A stretch of DNA of 64,000 nt from a phage: sequence record PZ445487.1, one strand, 5' to 3'. Positions within the stretch are counted from its first letter, which is position 1, and every line of letters starts with the position of its first letter. Shown here piece after piece: positions 5,308 through 36,050 of the stretch. The notes beneath the pieces were generated by a model, which was not told the DNA's origin, did no database searches, and saw nothing but the letters and a program-made list of their open reading frames with translations. A program made the position numbers and the translations under genes.

Positions 5308-6990
5308 ATGGCTGGATACGGCATGGGGTTCTTCGGTTTGTTTGGTGGCGGCGGTTTAGTCAATGCCAAAGTCGACACCGATAAGTTAGCCCAAAAACAA
5401 GATGAATTGTTGCTCACCAAGGCGACAGTTGTTGCTCTGGACGATGCTCAAGACGGTTCTATAATCCTTCAGGGCGGTGCAAACACCTACAACTATGTTG
5501 GCGTTGAGAGTGAACTTCTCAGCGTTAAAACAGTTGTGGAAGAATATCAGTCCATGGCTCAACAGCCTGAAATTCGCAAAGCTGTGGACATTATTGTCAA
5601 TGATGTTGTCACCTGTGAGGAAGATGAAACTCCAGTGACAGTAAACCTTGACAAAGTTGAAGGGATATCTGATACTGTTAAAGAATCTATCACCGAATGC
5701 TTCAAAGAAGTTATGCACTTGATGGACTTTGACAATACAGCATATCAGAAGATCCGGAAATGGTATGTTGACGGTCGACAAGCATATCATGTCATCGTTG
5801 ATCCCACGAATAAAAAAGGCGGGATCAAGAAATTGGTCATGCTGGATTCTCGTTGTATTCGTCCTGTGTACATCGTTGAAAAGGCAATGCGTGAAGGTGG
5901 TATAGAAGCGATCGAATCTGTAACGCTGAAATACTATTACAATCCGAATTATAATCGAAACCAATTCACTGGTCAATCAGGTACTTCTCAAAACTTCCAA
6001 CCTTCACAACAAGAACTCGTGTTTGATGACGAAAGCATTGTTTATATCGATAGTGGTGAAGAGCCATTGGCCAATGGTATTGTCCCAGGCCTTTTAAATC
6101 CTGCTATCCGTCCGTTGAACAACCTGGTTACGACTGAAGATGCGACTGTAATTTATGCCATCACTCGCGCCCCTGAGAAACGCGCATTCTATCTTGACGT
6201 CGGTACTCTCGGTAAGAAATCTGCTGAAGAATACATGACCATGATGATGGGTAAATTCAAAAACCGCAACGCATATGACCGCACCACTGGTAAGATAACA
6301 GGTAATGCCCATCTTATGGGTATTGCAGAGGATTATTGGTTGCCGCGCCGCGAAGGTCAGAATGCTACAGAGATTGCGACTGTTGGGGGTGGGAATCAAT
6401 TGGGCGAAATGGATCACGTGAACTATTTCCGTGAAAAACTCTATGATGCTCTAATGATCCCTAAGAGCCGCCTCCAAGAGGAAGGATCTATTAACATTGG
6501 GGGTTCTAACCTTGCGGAGATTACACAGGAAGAGCTGCGCTTCAGCAAGTTCTGTGCTGGGTTACGACGCCGTTACTCCCATTTCTTTATGGAATTCTTG
6601 CGCCGCCAGTTAATTTTGAAAGGCGTTACGGATGAAAAGGATTGGAATGAGAAGATCAAACCGTTTATAAAGTTTGAATTCACATCCGATAGTTACATTC
6701 GTGAACAACAAGAAAACGCTATCTTGAATGATCGTCTGGCTTCATTGAACACTGTTGAGCCATTTGTTGGTTCCATTTTCTCCATAGACTACGTCATGAG
6801 AAATGTATTGCGTATGTCTGATGAAGAAGTTAAAGAACAACAAACGAAGATCGCGGAAGAGAAGAAGAAAGGTCTCTATCCGAAGGTTCAAGCAGATGAA
6901 ACTGGCAATTATAGCGGTTCAGATGTTAGTCCGTTGAAGTTTAAACCTGAGACTATCCCATTCTCCGGTTCAACAGACGATAGTATTTAA
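5308..6990 (+). CDS. 20: Portal vertex protein (gp20-like)
   Basis: 560 aa; conserved blocks shared with T4 gp20 (KIRKWYVDGRQ, VIYAITRAPEKRAFYLDVG, TEDYWLPRREGQ). Confidence 0.9.
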   Translation: MAGYGMGFFGLFGGGGLVNAKVDTDKLAQKQDELLLTKATVVALDDAQDGSIILQGGANTYNYVGVESELLSVKTVVEEYQSMAQQPEIRKAVDIIVNDVVTCEEDETPVTVNLDKVEGISDTVKESITECFKEVMHLMDFDNTAYQKIRKWYVDGRQAYHVIVDPTNKKGGIKKLVMLDSRCIRPVYIVEKAMREGGIEAIESVTLKYYYNPNYNRNQFTGQSGTSQNFQPSQQELVFDDESIVYIDSGEEPLANGIVPGLLNPAIRPLNNLVTTEDATVIYAITRAPEKRAFYLDVGTLGKKSAEEYMTMMMGKFKNRNAYDRTTGKITGNAHLMGIAEDYWLPRREGQNATEIATVGGGNQLGEMDHVNYFREKLYDALMIPKSRLQEEGSINIGGSNLAEITQEELRFSKFCAGLRRRYSHFFMEFLRRQLILKGVTDEKDWNEKIKPFIKFEFTSDSYIREQQENAILNDRLASLNTVEPFVGSIFSIDYVMRNVLRMSDEEVKEQQTKIAEEKKKGLYPKVQADETGNYSGSDVSPLKFKPETIPFSGSTDDSI

Positions 6991-29187: not shown

Positions 29188-29454
29188 TTCTTCAAAAGTC
29201 TTTCAAAATCAATAACGTCCGGCAAATTGCTGGGCGTTTCAATTAACAAGCCAAGGTATAATGGCCCAATTGTAAAGCGAGGGAAATTACTTTGCCCAAA
29301 CCATTTTTGCGTTCAGGAGTTGACTCTCTTGACTCACAGTTTAAACCCAGCGAAGTTTTAATTCAACAGATTGAAACTAATCGCGAATTCATAGAACACA
29401 TGCTGGCGAAGCCGGAAGGTGAAGCCGTCCATACCACTAAAGAAGGTAATAACG

Positions 29455-31671
29455 ATGATTGAATCATTAACATTTAAGAATGCGGTTGCGACCGTCGCGC
29501 CGTCTAACCATGTAATCGTTGTGGATATCTCCGGTTCCATGTATCGTTCACTTCCAGAAGTCCGTAAGCATCTGAAGGAGAACCTGCCTTCCCTGGTGAA
29601 ACCGGAAGATACTGTGAGCATCCTTTACTTTTCATCTCGCGGTGATTTCGGAACGGTATTTGCCGGACGTCAGATTAACAGTGCAACTGATCTCAGTGAG
29701 ATCAATAATTTAATTGACCGTTTCCTGAAGCCTTCTGGTTGTACTGGTTTTGTTGAGCCGCTGAAATTGGCTGCGGAAACTGCCATTAGCTTGAATAAAC
29801 CTGGTTATGTTAATAACCTGGCATTCATGACCGACGGATATGACAACTGCTGGCGTTCTAATGAAATCCTGGATGCCGCTGAAGTACTGCCCAAAGCGTT
29901 TGATAACATTACCTTCATCGAATACGGTTGGTATTGTAATCGCGAACTGCTGGCGCTAATGGCAGAACGTTCTGGTGCGACCCACGTATTCGCCGAAGGC
30001 CAGAATGAATATCAGACCGAATTGGAAAACGTGCTAAAAACTTCTTCACCGAAAGTGGTGGTCGATGTTCCCCTGGTTTACACCCATGCCATTTATGTTG
30101 AAAATGGCGTGGCGACTGTTTTAGCTGTGCATCCTGATGAAGAGCACCCTATTGGCCACGTCAGCATCCCTGAAAGCGTTTCTCAGCTGTGGGTTGTAAA
30201 CCCCAACATGATCGACCAGCTGGATAATCTGGCAGACATCCAAGCGGCATACGTGCTGGCATTTTACGGCGTGTATACCATGGACGCAGATTTGGTTTGG
30301 GCTGCGCTGAAGAAAACGGGTGACGTCCGCTTCATCAAACAATACAGCAACTGTTTCACCAAGCAGGATTACTCCAACATCAAAGTCGATCTGACTCAGG
30401 CTATCGTAGACGAATCTCTGCGAGGAGTTGATGGCATCGATTATAATATGGTTCCGGCTGAAGACGCCACCACCATTGTTGATGTTCTGACGTATTTGGC
30501 TGAAGCAGATGTCTCTATCGTCACCAAGCATCCGCTATTCTCTTACAAGAGCATTGGGCGCGGTACTATACAAAAAGTTGACGACACCGAAGACAAGTTG
30601 GCCGAAGAGATTGCGAATGCGACTTCTAAAGAAGAGCGTAAAGCCCTGGCGCTCAAACTGGCCGAGCACGAAGATTGGACGCCGGAATTCAATCCAGCAG
30701 ATGATAAAGGGATTGTCCCGATCAGCAATTTGGTCTATAATTCAGAACGTCCTAACATCAGTGTGCAGACAGTTCAACACGGAACGGTTATTGTGCCTGA
30801 GTTTGTACAGAAGAAATATGAACTTCCTGAAGAGCTGGGAACCTGGCGTTATCGCAATTACACCATTGTCAAGGATGGTATCATCAACCTGAAAACAATG
30901 CCTATCACTGCAGATTCTCCGATTGTTCGGGCTAAGGTGGCACAGGATTTGACTGCCATGGGTGTTCATGTGTTTGGTGGGCCGGAAGTCTTCATTGTAA
31001 ATCTGGAAAGTGTCCCAATGGTTAACCGCGCCATGACAAAGAATATCAGTGCTGCTGAATTCTTTGCAGACAATGTGCGCCGTGAAGCATTGAAGGCAAA
31101 GCAAAAAGTTCTGAAATTCTACCGTGATGAACTGGTTGGCAAAGGCAACGCTACTGGTCTGGCTTCAAAATATGGCAAAGAAGCGGCTGATTTCCTGTCA
31201 GCAAACGGCATTCGCGACTATGGATTTTCACCGAAGACTTCTTCTGTAGAATCAACCGATGTCTATATGAGTCGTGAATTGAATGTGAAAATCAAAGGCG
31301 CATCTTCACTGCCGAGCATCGCGTCTGTTATCAAAAAACAGACGGACGGTAAAAAACTGAATGTCGCTGATCAGCTGATCGCTAATGCCCTGGCCGAATA
31401 CAATGCGTTTGTTAAATCGCCGATGATCACCAGCGTACCGGAAGAGACTCAGAAAAAGCTGATCGAAAGTTGGATTGGTGATGCAGCAAAAGCAGCTATC
31501 AACGAAGTTCGATCTCTGAACAAAACGCTGTCCAAGGTAGTTTATGGGATTGTTGCAGGCCATGGTTGGTTTACCGACCTGGATTTGGAAGAATCCACTA
31601 TGGATGTGGAAGTTGATGGGGTGAAATACACTGTCACTGCCGAACTGGCTGAAAAAGAAGTCAAAATCTAA
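29455..31671 (+). CDS. von Willebrand factor A (vWA) domain protein (738 aa)
   Basis: N-terminus carries the MIDAS motif in VIVVDISGSMY (DxSxS) with downstream T and D positions typical of vWA; about 550 aa of unassigned sequence follow. SD aagaagg before ATG 29455. Confidence 0.55.
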   Translation: MIESLTFKNAVATVAPSNHVIVVDISGSMYRSLPEVRKHLKENLPSLVKPEDTVSILYFSSRGDFGTVFAGRQINSATDLSEINNLIDRFLKPSGCTGFVEPLKLAAETAISLNKPGYVNNLAFMTDGYDNCWRSNEILDAAEVLPKAFDNITFIEYGWYCNRELLALMAERSGATHVFAEGQNEYQTELENVLKTSSPKVVVDVPLVYTHAIYVENGVATVLAVHPDEEHPIGHVSIPESVSQLWVVNPNMIDQLDNLADIQAAYVLAFYGVYTMDADLVWAALKKTGDVRFIKQYSNCFTKQDYSNIKVDLTQAIVDESLRGVDGIDYNMVPAEDATTIVDVLTYLAEADVSIVTKHPLFSYKSIGRGTIQKVDDTEDKLAEEIANATSKEERKALALKLAEHEDWTPEFNPADDKGIVPISNLVYNSERPNISVQTVQHGTVIVPEFVQKKYELPEELGTWRYRNYTIVKDGIINLKTMPITADSPIVRAKVAQDLTAMGVHVFGGPEVFIVNLESVPMVNRAMTKNISAAEFFADNVRREALKAKQKVLKFYRDELVGKGNATGLASKYGKEAADFLSANGIRDYGFSPKTSSVESTDVYMSRELNVKIKGASSLPSIASVIKKQTDGKKLNVADQLIANALAEYNAFVKSPMITSVPEETQKKLIESWIGDAAKAAINEVRSLNKTLSKVVYGIVAGHGWFTDLDLEESTMDVEVDGVKYTVTAELAEKEVKI

Positions 31672-31679
31672 ATTCAACT

Positions 31680-31700
31680 GGCGGGGAAACCCGCCTTCAT
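31680..31700 (+). terminator. Rho-independent terminator after the vWA gene
   Basis: ggcgggg-aaa-cccgcc then ttcatttt. Confidence 0.5.
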
Positions 31701-31714
31701 TTTGAGATATGCTT

Positions 31715-32026
31715 ATGTCAAACAAACCAACTTATGTTGAAGTAATGCGTGTTCTGGCTCAGTACGCTTGTGACAACCTGAACATGGAAACTTGGCGCAA
31801 CGGGGATCACAAGGACAAGTTTGATAACATTGATGATAATATCGATGCTTTAGCGCCGTTACGGGTTAAGAATGATCTCGGCGGTGACGATCTTGACATG
31901 ATTGAGCTGGTCATGGAAATCGAAGAAGAGTACGATGTAGAAATTAGTGACGAGTGGGTGGGTAAACATGGAGATGATCCTACCCTCGGAGAGTTAGCTG
32001 AACTCGTCGTTGCCCTGCGCAAGTAA
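31715..32026 (+). CDS. Acyl carrier protein-like protein with Asp in place of the phosphopantetheine-attachment Ser
   Basis: DLGGDDLDMIELVMEIEEEYDVEISDE aligns to the ACP core DLGADSLD(T/M)VELVMALEEEF...I.DE, but the modified Ser is D (codon gat). Confidence 0.5.
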   Translation: MSNKPTYVEVMRVLAQYACDNLNMETWRNGDHKDKFDNIDDNIDALAPLRVKNDLGGDDLDMIELVMEIEEEYDVEISDEWVGKHGDDPTLGELAELVVALRK

Positions 32027-32448: not shown

Positions 32449-32955
32449 ATGACCGATCAACAAATTCAAGATTTATTTTACCTCGTCCATGATAAGTCCC
32501 ACATCATGCGCCCTGGCACTGTTTCCCCTGCCATCCGTGGTCTGGTGCAAGAATTACGCGAACCGCAGATGACCACACTTTATCGCGGGTTGCCTAAAGA
32601 GGACGTTGCGCGTTTGGAGATGATGTTTGAACGAGGAGACATGTTTCAGACATGGGATTCTTGTCTTAGTTTCAGCGAACTGAAGCATGTGGCCAAACAA
32701 TTTTCTAAATCGTATGGAACCAAAGCTGTTGCCCGCATTTGTTATAAACATCGAAACGGACTCCCAGAGGGGCTTAATGTCTTTGGTTCTCTAGAAAAAT
32801 TTGTGAACAAAGGCGATGAATCAGAAATGGATATGCTGGACTTGGCGTCCATGGAGAAAGAATGGATATTCTGTCAGCCTCGCGTCTTCCCAGTTTCAAG
32901 AAAAATGGCAACAGATGGGACGATGGTTTTTACCGTATCACTTGTTACCCTATAA
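32449..32955 (+). CDS. Putative ADP-ribosyltransferase (ModA/ModB-like)
   Basis: R-S-ExE arrangement: LYRGLP (Arg), WDSCLSFS (Ser motif), EKEWIF (ExE) in the order and spacing of T4 ModA as I recall it; 168 aa. Confidence 0.4.
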   Translation: MTDQQIQDLFYLVHDKSHIMRPGTVSPAIRGLVQELREPQMTTLYRGLPKEDVARLEMMFERGDMFQTWDSCLSFSELKHVAKQFSKSYGTKAVARICYKHRNGLPEGLNVFGSLEKFVNKGDESEMDMLDLASMEKEWIFCQPRVFPVSRKMATDGTMVFTVSLVTL

Positions 32956-33286: not shown

Positions 33287-33323
33287 ACTAACTAAGGGAT
33301 AATCCTATATCCCGAGGTGTGTC

Positions 33324-33773
33324 ATGTTCCTTACATCCTTTATTGACTGGATGAATATCATAAATGGCCTGAGGATTCCTGTTGGGAACCTCGGGCTTTC
33401 TCGTTCTTCTATGCCGCAAATCGATGCCGACAAACAAGAAGATTTTCACAAATATCTTGAAGACAACGGCGTGTCCATAGATGCTGCGCAAGTGCCCATC
33501 AAAATGCTTCGTCTTACCCAGAACGAAATCAATAAAATGAAGGTCTGGAAGATTATGAAGCAGATCAGAAATAAGAAGCCCATGGGTCGAGTTTGGGTGT
33601 CTTCTGACAATTACGTTGTTGACGGGTCTCACCGATTTGTCGCTGCGTTGAACATGGACGGCAAACAGCGCATGAAGGTCTACAAAGTTGATTTGCCAGC
33701 GATGGAATTTGTTAAACTCGCTAAACAGTTTCAGGGTGTGCGATACAGAACGGTCTCAGATTCGAGATACTAA
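33324..33773 (+). CDS. ParB/sulfiredoxin-like nuclease-domain protein
   Basis: YVVDGSHRFVAA matches the ParB N-terminal domain signature (x-DG-HR-xA). Confidence 0.45.
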   Translation: MFLTSFIDWMNIINGLRIPVGNLGLSRSSMPQIDADKQEDFHKYLEDNGVSIDAAQVPIKMLRLTQNEINKMKVWKIMKQIRNKKPMGRVWVSSDNYVVDGSHRFVAALNMDGKQRMKVYKVDLPAMEFVKLAKQFQGVRYRTVSDSRY

Positions 33774-33774
33774 T

Positions 33775-34050
33775 ATGGACGTCTATTCAGAACTTATCGA
33801 AATAGGAGCGAAACGTCATTTCGTAAACAAATATCTTTCGCTCATTTCTTCTTTTAGTCATTACCAAGGCGTCGGGGAGAAGCACCTATTGAAAGGTAAG
33901 ACGAGAGGGGAAGCCCTGAAACAAGTATTCGGTTCCAATGACGCAGAAATTTGGGCACAGGTTCGGCCAATTATTCTACGGTTGGATAACGGTTGGGACC
34001 CTTTAACTTGCGAAAAATGGGTTAATCGTTATGGGGTGGAATACCAGTAA
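33775..34050 (+). CDS. Hypothetical protein (91 aa)
   Basis: Internal ATG of track ORF 33688..34050 chosen to avoid overlap. Confidence 0.35.
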   Translation: MDVYSELIEIGAKRHFVNKYLSLISSFSHYQGVGEKHLLKGKTRGEALKQVFGSNDAEIWAQVRPIILRLDNGWDPLTCEKWVNRYGVEYQ

Positions 34051-35993: not shown

Positions 35994-36050
35994 TTCAATA
36001 ACATTAGGGCGGTTATTATTAAACCGCCTTTTATTTGAGAGATCTATATT

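What the first reader, a model, noticed from the sequence alone, without database searches (positions are those of the whole stretch)
33324..33773. ParB-like nuclease-domain protein among early accessory genes
The motif YVVDGSHR marks a ParB/sulfiredoxin-type domain. Stand-alone ParB-like domains in phages act as nucleases or CTP-dependent switches and are sometimes linked to anti-defence.
Basis: partly seen in the sequence, partly recalled or inferred. Interest (0 to 1): 0.4.

Follow-up and report, generated by a model that had tools for sequence, protein, structure and literature searches.

The report
Virion-associated solo ParB/sulfiredoxin-fold phage protein
This small gene of E. coli phage CBA120 encodes a stand-alone, highly divergent ParB/sulfiredoxin-fold nucleotide-binding protein that published proteomes find in the virus particle and that belongs to a large uncharacterised phage family often fused to anti-defence and nucleotide-processing enzymes; its activity is still unknown.

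Summary
The ORF (window 33324-33773, +, 149 aa) and its YVVDGSHR motif are real. It is orf137/gp108 of Escherichia phage CBA120, annotated as hypothetical.

Other evidence still places it in the ParB/Srx superfamily:
- an AlphaFold model whose 42 best PDB matches are all ParB/Srx structures;
- profile alignments that put G101-S102-H103-R104 on sulfiredoxin GCHR and ParB GERR;
- weak ParB-like PHROG matches.

It has no HTH or dimerisation domain, so it is not a partition clamp.

It is not an early accessory gene. It is syntenic across Ackermannviridae. Its orthologues were detected in purified virions (LIMEstone1: 5 peptides, 36% coverage; Sajous1: 11 spectra).

The family is large (4,873 cluster representatives), has no Pfam model and is distinct from ParB_N, ParBc_2 and DdrB-ParB. 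About half of its best members are multi-domain proteins carrying Acb1, ADP-ribosyltransferases, Zeta kinases, RelA/SpoT, nucleotidyltransferases or head-morphogenesis modules.

Best reading: a virion-carried NTP-binding/hydrolysing effector domain in solo form. The function is inferred, not shown. Interest is moderate.

The parts
33324..33773 (+). CDS of CBA120 orf137/gp108: 149 aa, 17.3 kDa, pI 9.9, a stand-alone ParB/Srx-fold protein
   Evidence: ORF list. RefSeq annotation. Mass and pI. AlphaFold model with pLDDT 82.7 and pTM 0.76. Foldseek PDB.
33314..33319 (+). Shine-Dalgarno-like GAGGTG, 4 nt upstream of the ATG
   Evidence: Read directly from the sequence.
33296..33313 (+). Small inverted repeat GGGATA-ATCCTA-TATCCC between the orf138 stop and the RBS. 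Significance unknown.
   Evidence: Read directly from the sequence. Not tested for conservation.
33324..33368 (+). N-terminal amphipathic helix (residues 1-15), specific to the Ackermannviridae-type solo proteins. Speculative virion-targeting or partner-binding segment.
   Evidence: Model secondary structure H2-15, with lower pLDDT of 68-75. D8 is nearly invariant in A1. In the deep search most matches start at profile positions 14-23. The role is inferred only.
33369..33497 (+). Family-specific N-terminal extension (residues 16-58: loop, helix 35-47, strand 52-58). It is absent from the PDB structures' aligned region.
   Evidence: Model. Foldseek PDB alignments cover only about 90 columns. 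ParBc_2 profile matches in relatives start after this segment.
33402..33419 (+). Signature motif R27-x-x-M30-P31-Q32. R27, P31 and Q32 are invariant family-wide.
   Evidence: Alignments A2 and A3. The same motif is present in the Ralstonia QkW1 giant protein and in Pseudomonas Itty13.
33486..33728 (+). ParB/Srx core fold (about residues 55-135)
   Evidence: Foldseek PDB hits: pNOB8 ParB-N, Noc, Srx, ParB-CDP, SbnI, SerK, PadC, Atu1540. hhalign to Srx covers residues 62-129 and to Spo0J residues 55-110.
33507..33536 (+). Box-I-like strand/turn L-R-L-T-Q66-N-E68-I-N-K. Q66 is invariant family-wide.
   Evidence: A1, A2 and A3. It aligns to the Srx 'IRPLPSVLD' and Spo0J 'LRPNPYQPR' region.
33612..33635 (+). 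YVVDGSHR (family consensus DGHHR), the Box-II / phosphate-binding-loop equivalent
   Evidence: D100, G101 and H103 are invariant and R104 is at least 90% conserved. S102-H103-R104 align to Srx C99-H100-R101. G101-S102-H103-R104 align to Spo0J G77-E78-R79-R80. The DGHHRW motif matches SerK and 1vk1.
33775..34050 (+). Neighbour, not part of the protein: a 91-aa internally deleted remnant of a free-standing homing endonuclease abutting the gp108 stop
   Evidence: BLASTP to the intact 290-aa HEG of Klebsiella phage K5lambda5: residues 1-37 match HEG 14-50 and residues 37-91 match HEG 236-290. phrog_655 at 2e-5.

Best explanation
gp108 is a stand-alone, very divergent member of the ParB/sulfiredoxin superfamily. 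It consists of the nucleotide-binding core plus a family-specific N-terminal extension. It has no HTH DNA-binding domain and no dimerisation domain, so it is not a partition or sliding-clamp ParB.

It is a conserved, syntenic Ackermannviridae gene. Its product is made late enough to be incorporated into virions at modest copy number.

The most likely mechanism is as follows. The Q66/E68 turn and the D-G-S-H-R loop form a nucleotide-triphosphate pocket, as in Srx, SerK, ParB and ToxB. The protein binds and probably hydrolyses an NTP, or transfers its phosphate. It acts as a small effector at or near the start of infection, the solo counterpart of the same domain embedded in large multi-enzyme ('polyvalent') phage proteins. 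Its probable targets are nucleotide-based host processes or defences rather than DNA segregation.

Shown here: ORF, conservation, fold, conserved phosphate-loop equivalence and domain fusions. Taken from published proteomics: virion association. Inferred: NTP binding or turnover, delivery into the cell, and a counter-defence or takeover role.
For: Fold:
- The AlphaFold model is good (pLDDT 82.7, pTM 0.76).
- The top 42 Foldseek PDB matches are all ParB/Srx proteins: pNOB8 ParB-N at 7.8e-4, then Noc, Srx, CDP/CTPgS-bound ParB, SbnI, SerK, PadC and Atu1540.
- BFVD matches are dominated by phage 'ParB/Sulfiredoxin' proteins.

Active-site equivalence:
- hhalign of the 69-sequence profile to verified Srx and Spo0J sequences aligns GSHR to GCHR (E=3.7e-4) and to GERR (E=2.7e-3).
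- Invariant residues are R27, P31, Q32, Q66, D100, G101 and H103.

Not a clamp: the protein is 149 aa and consists only of the N-terminal extension plus the core.

Conservation and synteny:
- 409 phage records carry it.
- It keeps the same position relative to helicase, RNase H and gp55 in Kuttervirus, Limestonevirus, Taipeivirus and Vibrio Ackermannviridae.

Virion association:
- LIMEstone1 ORF102 is an 'unknown structural protein' of 17.31 kDa, with 5 unique peptides and 35.6% coverage. That paper states that all its unknown structural proteins have structural counterparts in ViI (PMC3296691).
- The Limestonevirus orthologue has a calculated mass of 17.30 kDa and is annotated 'unknown structural protein' in JA15.
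- Sajous1 gp192 (98.7% identical) gave 11 spectra from CsCl-purified virions (PMC10892097).

Effector-domain context:
- The family has 4,873 representatives, and 82 of the best 150 are longer than 200 aa.
- Fusion partners are Zeta_toxin/AAA_33 kinases, CTP_transf_like, PolyA_pol, RelA_SpoT, ADPrib_exo_Tox, ART-PolyVal, DUF3990, Acb1, GNAT and HINT.
- Some large members also match head-morphogenesis and head-protease-like PHROGs.
- Acb1 fusions make up 8 of the top 120 hits.
- A 3,168-aa giant protein in Ralstonia phage QkW1 carries the domain.
- This is the domain repertoire of polyvalent, virion-delivered proteins (PMC5512222).

Precedents for small non-segregation ParB folds: short single-domain phage ParB folds and binding of ATP, GTP or CTP (PMC12704722), and the ToxB ATPase toxin, which lacks DNA binding.
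Against: - No curated ParB profile matches gp108: Pfam gives 0 hits, and NCBIfam and PADLOC give none.
- Foldseek E-values are modest and cover only about 90 residues.
- No biochemical data exist for any family member. NTP binding is inferred from motif equivalence.
- In the Ackermannviridae clade the first His of DGHHR is Ser, which could alter or abolish catalysis.
- Virion detection could partly reflect co-purification of an abundant basic DNA-binding protein. The Sajous1 virion sample also contained RegB, Ssb and other non-structural proteins.
- Ejection into the host has not been shown.
- Solo and fused homologues in other large phages sit beside replication genes, not structural genes. 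That fits an intracellular DNA or nucleotide-metabolism role equally well.
- T4 Acb1 itself is not known to me to be a virion protein (my own knowledge).
Confidence: 0.5

Rival explanations
1. ParB-type nuclease: gp108 is a metal-dependent, largely sequence-non-specific DNA nicking or degrading enzyme. It would degrade host DNA or process phage DNA, possibly gated by NTP.
For: ParB/Srx fold. The nearest Pfam family reached by relatives is ParBc_2, 'putative ParB-like nuclease' (13 of 69 members, best E 1.1e-4). The protein is basic, pI 9.9. DNase and nickase activities are reported for Osa, ParB-methylase and GmrS (reviewed in PMC5512222). The gene lies near replication and recombination genes.
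Against: The 'nuclease' label of ParBc_2 is only a prediction. No second nuclease motif is present. The fusion partners are overwhelmingly nucleotide- or NAD-using enzymes, not DNA-processing modules. Iyer et al. themselves favoured NTP sensing or degradation over DNase for the polyvalent-protein ParB domains.
Confidence: 0.15
2. Non-catalytic DNA-associated virion protein: a basic internal protein that binds the packaged genome or its ends, for condensation, protection or ejection. Its ParB-like fold would serve only as a DNA- or protein-binding scaffold.
For: pI 9.9. Virion detection in two independent proteomes. The best PDB match is the pNOB8 ParB N-domain, reported to bind DNA non-specifically (my own knowledge). 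In Vibrio phage YC the gene is two genes from the gp2 DNA-end protector.
Against: Strict invariance of polar pocket residues (R27, Q32, Q66, D100, H103, R104) across 27-48% identical members argues for a ligand or catalytic site rather than a generic DNA-coating role. The same domain is fused to enzymes in proteins with no obvious capsid link.
Confidence: 0.12
3. Regulatory or activator subunit: gp108 is a nucleotide-sensing partner that switches on another phage enzyme. The model is ParB176, which activates a phage thymine dioxygenase. A possible partner would be an enzyme of the thymidine-hypermodification or replication machinery.
For: A ParB-fold activator of a phage DNA-modifying enzyme exists (PMC13229309). 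Solo copies occur in Kuttervirus and in Delftia phage PhiW-14. Both are thymidine-hypermodifying phages (my own knowledge). In fusions the domain sits beside diverse enzymes, as a regulatory module might.
Against: No conserved neighbouring partner gene was found: the upstream genes vary (an ADP-ribosylase-like gene versus DenV). The family is far wider than the hypermodifying phages. ParB176 needs a C-terminal dimerisation domain that gp108 lacks.
Confidence: 0.1
4. Canonical CTP-dependent ParB-like DNA clamp or partition protein.
For: Structural similarity to CTP/CDP-bound ParB and Noc N-domains. A GxxR-type loop is present.
Against: There is no HTH, no C-terminal dimerisation domain and no ParA neighbour. 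PF02195 and TIGR-type ParB models do not match. CBA120 is a virulent phage with no plasmid state (my own knowledge).
Confidence: 0.03

Closest known systems
ParBc_2 (Pfam PF08857; Atu1540, PDB 2hwj), 'putative ParB-like nuclease'
   Same: It is the nearest curated sequence family. 13 of 69 solo relatives and several large relatives reach it at E 1e-4 to 1e-2. One relative has it precomputed (P0191). Atu1540 is among the Foldseek hits with 22% identity. Both share the L-x-P/T-T-Q ... DGHHR pattern.
   Different: gp108 itself does not match, and relatives stay below the gathering score of 23.6 bits. gp108's family has an extra N-terminal extension with the invariant R-x-x-M-P-Q motif, which lies outside the ParBc_2 match. 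ParBc_2 has no known function either.
DdrB-like ParB domain of phage P1 DdrB and phage polyvalent proteins (PF18763; Iyer et al. 2017, PMC5512222)
   Same: Both are ParB/Srx-fold domains that occur solo or inside giant multi-enzyme phage proteins. Both are linked to ART, kinase, RelA/SpoT, 2H and MuF-type modules. Both have virion incorporation documented for the prototype. Both lack ParA and other DNase partners.
   Different: There is no sequence-family membership. PF18763 matches 1 of 20 members at E=0.073. hhalign against P1 DdrB gives E=0.42 and aligns only the core strand (SGNGR against DGSHR). DdrB-ParB usually lies among late structural genes, whereas gp108 lies beside replication and lysis genes.
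Sulfiredoxin, SerK and SbnI: ATP/ADP-dependent phosphotransferases of the ParB/Srx fold
   Same: They share a single compact nucleotide-binding domain that acts without DNA. The loop is (D/G)G-x-H-R: S102 aligns to Srx Cys99 and H103/R104 to H100/R101. The family consensus DGHHRW is identical to the SerK/1vk1 motif.
   Different: Sequence similarity is confined to the core motif (E 0.6-1.4 against PDB sequences). gp108 lacks Srx's catalytic Cys and SerK's C-terminal domain. Substrate and chemistry are unknown.
ToxB, the ParB-fold ATPase toxin of contact-dependent inhibition systems (bioRxiv 10.64898/2026.05.05.722872)
   Same: It is a delivered effector made of a ParB fold that lacks DNA binding and works through nucleotide binding and hydrolysis. 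This is the closest functional analogy to the proposed role.
   Different: It has a different delivery route (CdiA, not a virion) and a cognate immunity protein. Sequence relatedness was not tested because I had no ToxB sequence.
Canonical ParB/Noc/KorB CTPase clamps (PF02195, TIGR00180)
   Same: The N-domain fold and the Box II phosphate loop position are shared.
   Different: gp108 has no HTH, no dimerisation domain, no ParA or parS context, and no profile match.

Membership tests
ParB/Srx superfamily (fold level) | alpha/beta ParB/Srx core fold | tested here: met
   The AlphaFold model has pLDDT 82.7. The top 42 Foldseek PDB hits are all ParB/Srx proteins, with probability 0.8-1.0 and TM about 0.45 over about 90 residues. 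BFVD hits agree.
ParB/Srx superfamily (fold level) | Conserved G-x-x-R / (D)G-x-H-R phosphate-binding loop at the strand-to-helix turn | tested here: met
   D100, G101 and H103 are invariant and R104 is at least 90% conserved. The loop aligns to Srx GCHR and Spo0J GERR.
ParB/Srx superfamily (fold level) | Binds a nucleotide (ATP, CTP or GTP) | not testable with these tools
   Needs purified protein. Inferred only from motif equivalence.
Pfam ParB_N / ParBc (PF02195) | Profile match above the gathering score (26.3 bits) | tested here: not met
   There were 0 Pfam hits for gp108 at E<=10, and none among 20 and 69 relatives. Only a second, separate domain in P0183 approaches it at 22.3 bits.
Canonical ParB CTPase clamp (ParABS, Noc, KorB) | HTH DNA-binding domain plus C-terminal dimerisation domain | tested here: not met
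   The 149-aa protein comprises only the N-terminal extension and the core. No HTH or dimerisation profile matches.
Canonical ParB CTPase clamp (ParABS, Noc, KorB) | Adjacent ParA ATPase / parS-type site | tested here: not met
   No ParA is annotated within +/-9 kb. The neighbours have no ParA-like Pfam or PHROG hits. parS-like repeats were not searched.
ParBc_2 (PF08857) | Profile match above the gathering score (23.6 bits) | tested here: not met
   gp108 has no hit. 13 of 69 relatives reach E<=0.01 but stay below the cut-off, with a best of 22.6 bits. It is the nearest curated family, not a membership.
DdrB-like ParB (PF18763) | Sequence or profile similarity to the P1 DdrB ParB domain | tested here: not met
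   PF18763 matches 1 of 20 members at E=0.073. hhalign of A2 against P1 DdrB gives E=0.42 and probability 0.14%. BLASTP gives nothing.
DdrB-like ParB (PF18763) | [quoted passage not shown] | not tested
   No DdrB-ParB alignment or structure was available for comparison.
Polyvalent-protein effector domains (Iyer et al. 2017) | The domain recurs in large multi-domain phage proteins together with ART, kinase, RelA/SpoT, NTase, 2H, GNAT and MuF-type modules | tested here: met
   82 of the 150 best representatives are longer than 200 aa. Pfam partners are listed. Head-morphogenesis and head-protease-like PHROGs appear. A giant QkW1 protein carries the domain.
Polyvalent-protein effector domains (Iyer et al. 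2017) | Packaged in the virion and delivered with the DNA | tested here: inconclusive
   Packaging is supported by two published proteomes of orthologues. Delivery into the host has not been shown anywhere and is not testable here.
ParB-type nucleases | Metal-dependent DNase or nickase activity | not testable with these tools
   Requires a biochemical assay.
Known anti-phage defence components with ParB-like domains (DndB, GmrS/DUF262, etc.) | Match to a PADLOC-DB model | tested here: not met
   There were no hits for gp108 or for 6 of 7 diverse relatives. One noise-level hit had E=0.0083.

The most novel reading that the evidence does not exclude
gp108 is the solo form of a previously undescribed, Pfam-less ParB/Srx family (at least 4,800 clusters at 50% identity). 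Phages would package this enzyme in the capsid and co-inject it. It would bind or turn over a nucleotide, or transfer phosphate, in order to neutralise nucleotide-based immunity (CBASS-, Pycsar- or Thoeris-like signalling, or NTP/NAD depletion) or RNA-end damage. That would explain its recurrent fusion to Acb1, ADP-ribosyltransferases, Zeta/Pnk-like kinases, CCA-adding-type nucleotidyltransferases and RelA/SpoT domains.
Probability: 0.25. Interest if true: 0.7.

Novelty: new variant of a known kind. Interest (0 to 1): 0.4.

Why it matters
Recent work has shown that the ParB fold is a general NTP-binding module used well beyond chromosome segregation. That survey was anchored on PF02195, which does not detect this family.

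gp108 represents a very large phage-borne branch with these features:
- its own conserved N-terminal sub-domain;
- documented virion association in Ackermannviridae;
- repeated physical fusion to a proven anti-CBASS enzyme family and to other nucleotide- or NAD-using effectors.

Kuttervirus and Limestonevirus phages are used for biocontrol and therapy, which makes this a tractable 17-kDa candidate for a new injected counter-defence or host-takeover activity. If instead it proves to be a mere DNA-binding passenger, the finding is ordinary.

Tried and rejected
- Pfam, NCBIfam and PADLOC scans of gp108 gave no usable hits.
- PDB sequence searches with the single sequence and with two profiles gave only chance-level hits. 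The vWF A1 hits came from a 'DGSH' coincidence. The SerK hits came from DGHHRW at E about 1.
- DdrB-ParB membership was rejected after hhalign and BLASTP against P1 DdrB.
- The T4-type late promoter TATAAATA occurs once in 64 kb, which is at or below chance. The sigma70-like promoter count equals the shuffled expectation. The temporal class could therefore not be assigned.
- Literature searches found no Kuttervirus transcriptome.
- The Sajous1 supplements hold no peptide-level data, so N-terminal processing could not be checked.
- The PhiPD10.3/PhiPD23.1 and PhiD3 proteome papers give their protein identities only in figures, so they could not be used.
- An all-82-sequence container alignment failed. 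It was repeated with 72 sequences.
- A link to the T-dioxygenase/ParB activator system was considered and set aside, because that ParB needs a C-terminal dimerisation domain that gp108 lacks.
- The Itty13 antisense match was examined and left as a probable annotation or assembly problem.

Full report
**Observation.** The window is 100% identical to Escherichia phage CBA120 (Ackermannviridae, Kuttervirus), reverse-complemented. The flagged ORF is exact: ATG at 33324 and TAA at 33771-33773, 149 aa, preceded by GAGGTG. It is orf137 / CBA120_gp108 / YP_004957811.1, annotated 'hypothetical protein'. YVVDGSHR is residues 97-104. tblastn finds the protein in 409 phage records, 384 of them at 80% coverage or more. 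It is therefore a real, conserved gene.

**Is it ParB-like?** By curated sequence profiles, no.
- Pfam returns nothing even at E<=10.
- NCBIfam and PADLOC return nothing.
- PDB sequence searches give only chance-level hits.
- PHROGs places it firmly in phrog_2859, of unknown function (3e-45). ParB-like PHROGs reach only E 0.0015-0.016.

By structure and profile-profile comparison, yes.
- An AlphaFold2 model built on 20 homologues has pLDDT 82.7 and pTM 0.76.
- Its 42 best Foldseek PDB matches are all ParB/Srx-superfamily proteins: pNOB8 ParB-N, Noc, sulfiredoxin, CDP/CTPgS-bound ParB, SbnI, SerK, PadC and Atu1540.
- hhalign of a 69-sequence family profile then aligned gp108 residues 62-129 to Srx (E=3.7e-4). 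This places S102-H103-R104 on Cys99-His100-Arg101.
- It aligned residues 55-110 to Spo0J (E=2.7e-3). This places G101-S102-H103-R104 on the Box II loop G77-E78-R79-R80.
- UniRef already names close homologues 'ParB/Sulfiredoxin domain-containing protein'. [quoted passage not shown]

**Anatomy.** The model reads as follows:
- helix 2-15;
- a conserved loop and helix 35-47, then strand 52-58, which together form a family-specific N-terminal extension;
- the Srx-like core from about residue 55 to 135.

Across 69 solo relatives that share only 27-48% identity with gp108, the invariant residues are R27, P31, Q32, Q66, D100, G101 and H103. M30, S93, D95, R104 and A107 are at least 90% conserved, and the consensus core motif is DGHHR. 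A set of 72 multi-domain members gives the same result. The Ackermannviridae clade has Ser in place of the first His. There is no HTH or dimerisation domain, so a ParABS/Noc-type clamp is excluded. The protein is basic, with pI 9.9.

**Family.** An exhaustive profile search found 4,873 cluster representatives at E<=1e-3 and 2,266 at E<=1e-10. Of the best 150, 82 are longer than 200 aa, up to 2,359 aa.

The nearest curated family is ParBc_2 (PF08857), reached sub-threshold by 13 of 69 solo relatives and by several large ones. PF02195 and the DdrB-ParB model do not match. A direct hhalign against phage P1 DdrB aligns only the core strand (SGNGR against DGSHR), at E=0.42. The family is therefore distinct and lacks a Pfam model.

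Fusion partners found:
- Zeta_toxin/AAA_33 kinases (5 of 72);
- CTP_transf_like (4);
- PolyA_pol (2) and RelA_SpoT (2);
- ADPrib_exo_Tox, ART-PolyVal, DUF3990, Acb1, GNAT and HINT.

Example architectures are CTP_transf-ParBlike-PolyA_pol, ParBlike-RelA_SpoT and ParBlike-ParB_N-Zeta kinase. Some large members also match head-morphogenesis and head-protease-like PHROGs and carry a second ParB-like domain.

In the annotated collection, 8 of the top 120 hits are Acb1 + ParB-like fusions of about 300 aa. A class of about 337 aa carries a cytidylyltransferase-like domain. Ralstonia phage QkW1 carries the domain about 1,090 residues into a 3,168-aa protein. This repertoire matches the 'polyvalent proteins' of Iyer et al. 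2017. Those authors argued that the ParB-superfamily domains in such proteins more likely sense or degrade NTPs than act as plain DNases.

**Context and timing.**
- The gene is syntenic across Ackermannviridae. In Vibrio phages it lies immediately, or two genes, upstream of the helicase-RNase H-gp55 module. In CBA120 the same module follows after an insertion of spanin, superinfection-exclusion and lipoprotein genes.
- Terminator-like hairpins at 31680-31695 and 36006-36030 bracket a co-directional block from the acyl-carrier protein gene to orf131. This block includes gp108 and the spanins.
- Promoter consensus scans were uninformative.
- I found no transcriptome data.

**Virion association (from the literature).**
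- LIMEstone1 ORF102 is an 'unknown structural protein' of 17.31 kDa, with 5 unique peptides and 35.6% coverage. This is well above the single-peptide contaminants the authors flagged.
- The same paper states that all 12 unknown structural proteins have structural counterparts in ViI.
- The Limestonevirus orthologue has a calculated mass of 17.30 kDa and is annotated 'unknown structural protein' in JA15.
- The 98.7%-identical Sajous1 gp192 gave 11 spectra from CsCl-purified virions, similar to the baseplate hub (13) and the prohead protease (13).
- Caveat: that sample also contained RegB, Ssb and other non-structural proteins.

**Counter-indication.** The Acb1- and CTP_transf-fused homologues sit on 127-405 kb phage-like contigs directly after DNA polymerase-RecA-DnaB genes. 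A purely intracellular nucleotide or DNA-metabolism role therefore cannot be excluded.

**Mechanism.** The best-supported reading is a stand-alone ParB/Srx nucleotide-binding domain. Its Q66/E68 turn and DGSHR loop would hold an NTP, as in Srx, SerK, ParB and the ToxB ATPase toxin. It would bind and probably hydrolyse the NTP, or transfer a phosphate. It would be carried in the virion and act at the onset of infection, as the solo counterpart of the effector domain seen in polyvalent proteins.
- Shown here: fold, motif equivalence, conservation and fusions.
- From the literature: virion presence.
- Inferred: NTP turnover, injection and a counter-defence role.

Rival readings are a ParB-type nuclease (0.15), a non-catalytic DNA-associated internal protein (0.12), an activator subunit like ParB176 (0.10) and a canonical CTP clamp (0.03).

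**Novelty and verdict.** What this analysis adds:
- the protein belongs to none of the curated ParB families;
- it has a conserved extra sub-domain with an R-x-x-M-P-Q signature;
- it is a core, virion-associated Ackermannviridae protein;
- its family is a large hub of phage multi-enzyme effectors with recurrent Acb1 fusions.

I rate it a new variant of a known kind, of moderate interest (0.4). It is testable with simple biochemistry and a knockout.

Noticed in passing
window 33775-34050 (+): A 91-aa ORF starts 2 nt after the gp108 stop. It is an internally deleted remnant of a 290-aa free-standing homing endonuclease that is intact at the same site in Klebsiella phage vB_Ko_K5lambda5 (L010 2913-3785), where it overlaps the 3' end of the gp108 orthologue. 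Residues 1-37 match HEG 14-50 and residues 37-91 match HEG 236-290, so the catalytic middle is deleted. RefSeq annotates only a 53-aa orf136 (33889-34050).
   Followed up: yes
window 32449-32955 (+), orf140: This 168-aa protein is named 'RNA polymerase ADP-ribosylase' in RefSeq. It matches only the C-terminal part of phrog_832 (E=1.1e-15) and no Pfam family. In Sajous1 and Dickeya JA15 a DenV-like pyrimidine-dimer glycosylase gene occupies this slot instead, so it is a variable position two genes upstream of gp108. ADP-ribosyltransferases are among the domains fused to the gp108-type domain elsewhere.
   Followed up: partly
window 29419-31671 (+), orf143: This protein of about 740 aa has an N-terminal vWA domain (PF00092, E=3.4e-7). 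Its LIMEstone1 orthologue (ORF108, 81 kDa) was also detected in virions with 6 peptides. It may be another non-canonical virion component in the same gene block, followed by a phage acyl-carrier protein gene (31709-32026).
   Followed up: partly
L006 (Pseudomonas phage Itty13, NC_070969.1) about 5941-6390, + strand of the locus: A clear gp108-family signature (RAEMPQI...LKPTQAE...VSSDGHVLDGHHQW) lies in a short reading frame antisense to the annotated 978-aa gene PQC19_gp03. The translation of that gene is low-complexity and has no similarity to the homologous giant protein of Ralstonia phage QkW1. This is probably a wrong-strand annotation, a frameshifted assembly, or both, in that record.
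   Followed up: partly
window 33296-33313 (+): A small inverted repeat GGGATA-ATCCTA-TATCCC lies between the orf138 stop and the gp108 ribosome-binding site. It was not checked for conservation or recurrence elsewhere in the genome.
   Followed up: no
P0206, P0211, P0137, P0225, P0226, P0228, P0236, P0241 (L011 8001-8912 for P0225): There is a recurrent two-domain protein of about 300 aa, with an N-terminal Acb1 (anti-CBASS 2H phosphodiesterase, PF23474) and a C-terminal gp108-type ParB/Srx domain. It is encoded on large (up to 405 kb) phage-like contigs next to a 2OG-Fe(II) oxygenase gene and the DNA pol-RecA-DnaB module. I am not aware that this architecture has been described.
   Followed up: partly
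window 31680-31695 and 36006-36030: Two GC-rich terminator-like hairpins, the first bidirectional, delimit a co-directional block of about 4.3 kb: ACP, orf141, orf140, orf138, gp108, the HEG remnant, i-spanin-like orf135, the Rz-like spanin and orf131. The block mixes lysis genes with gp108.
   Followed up: no
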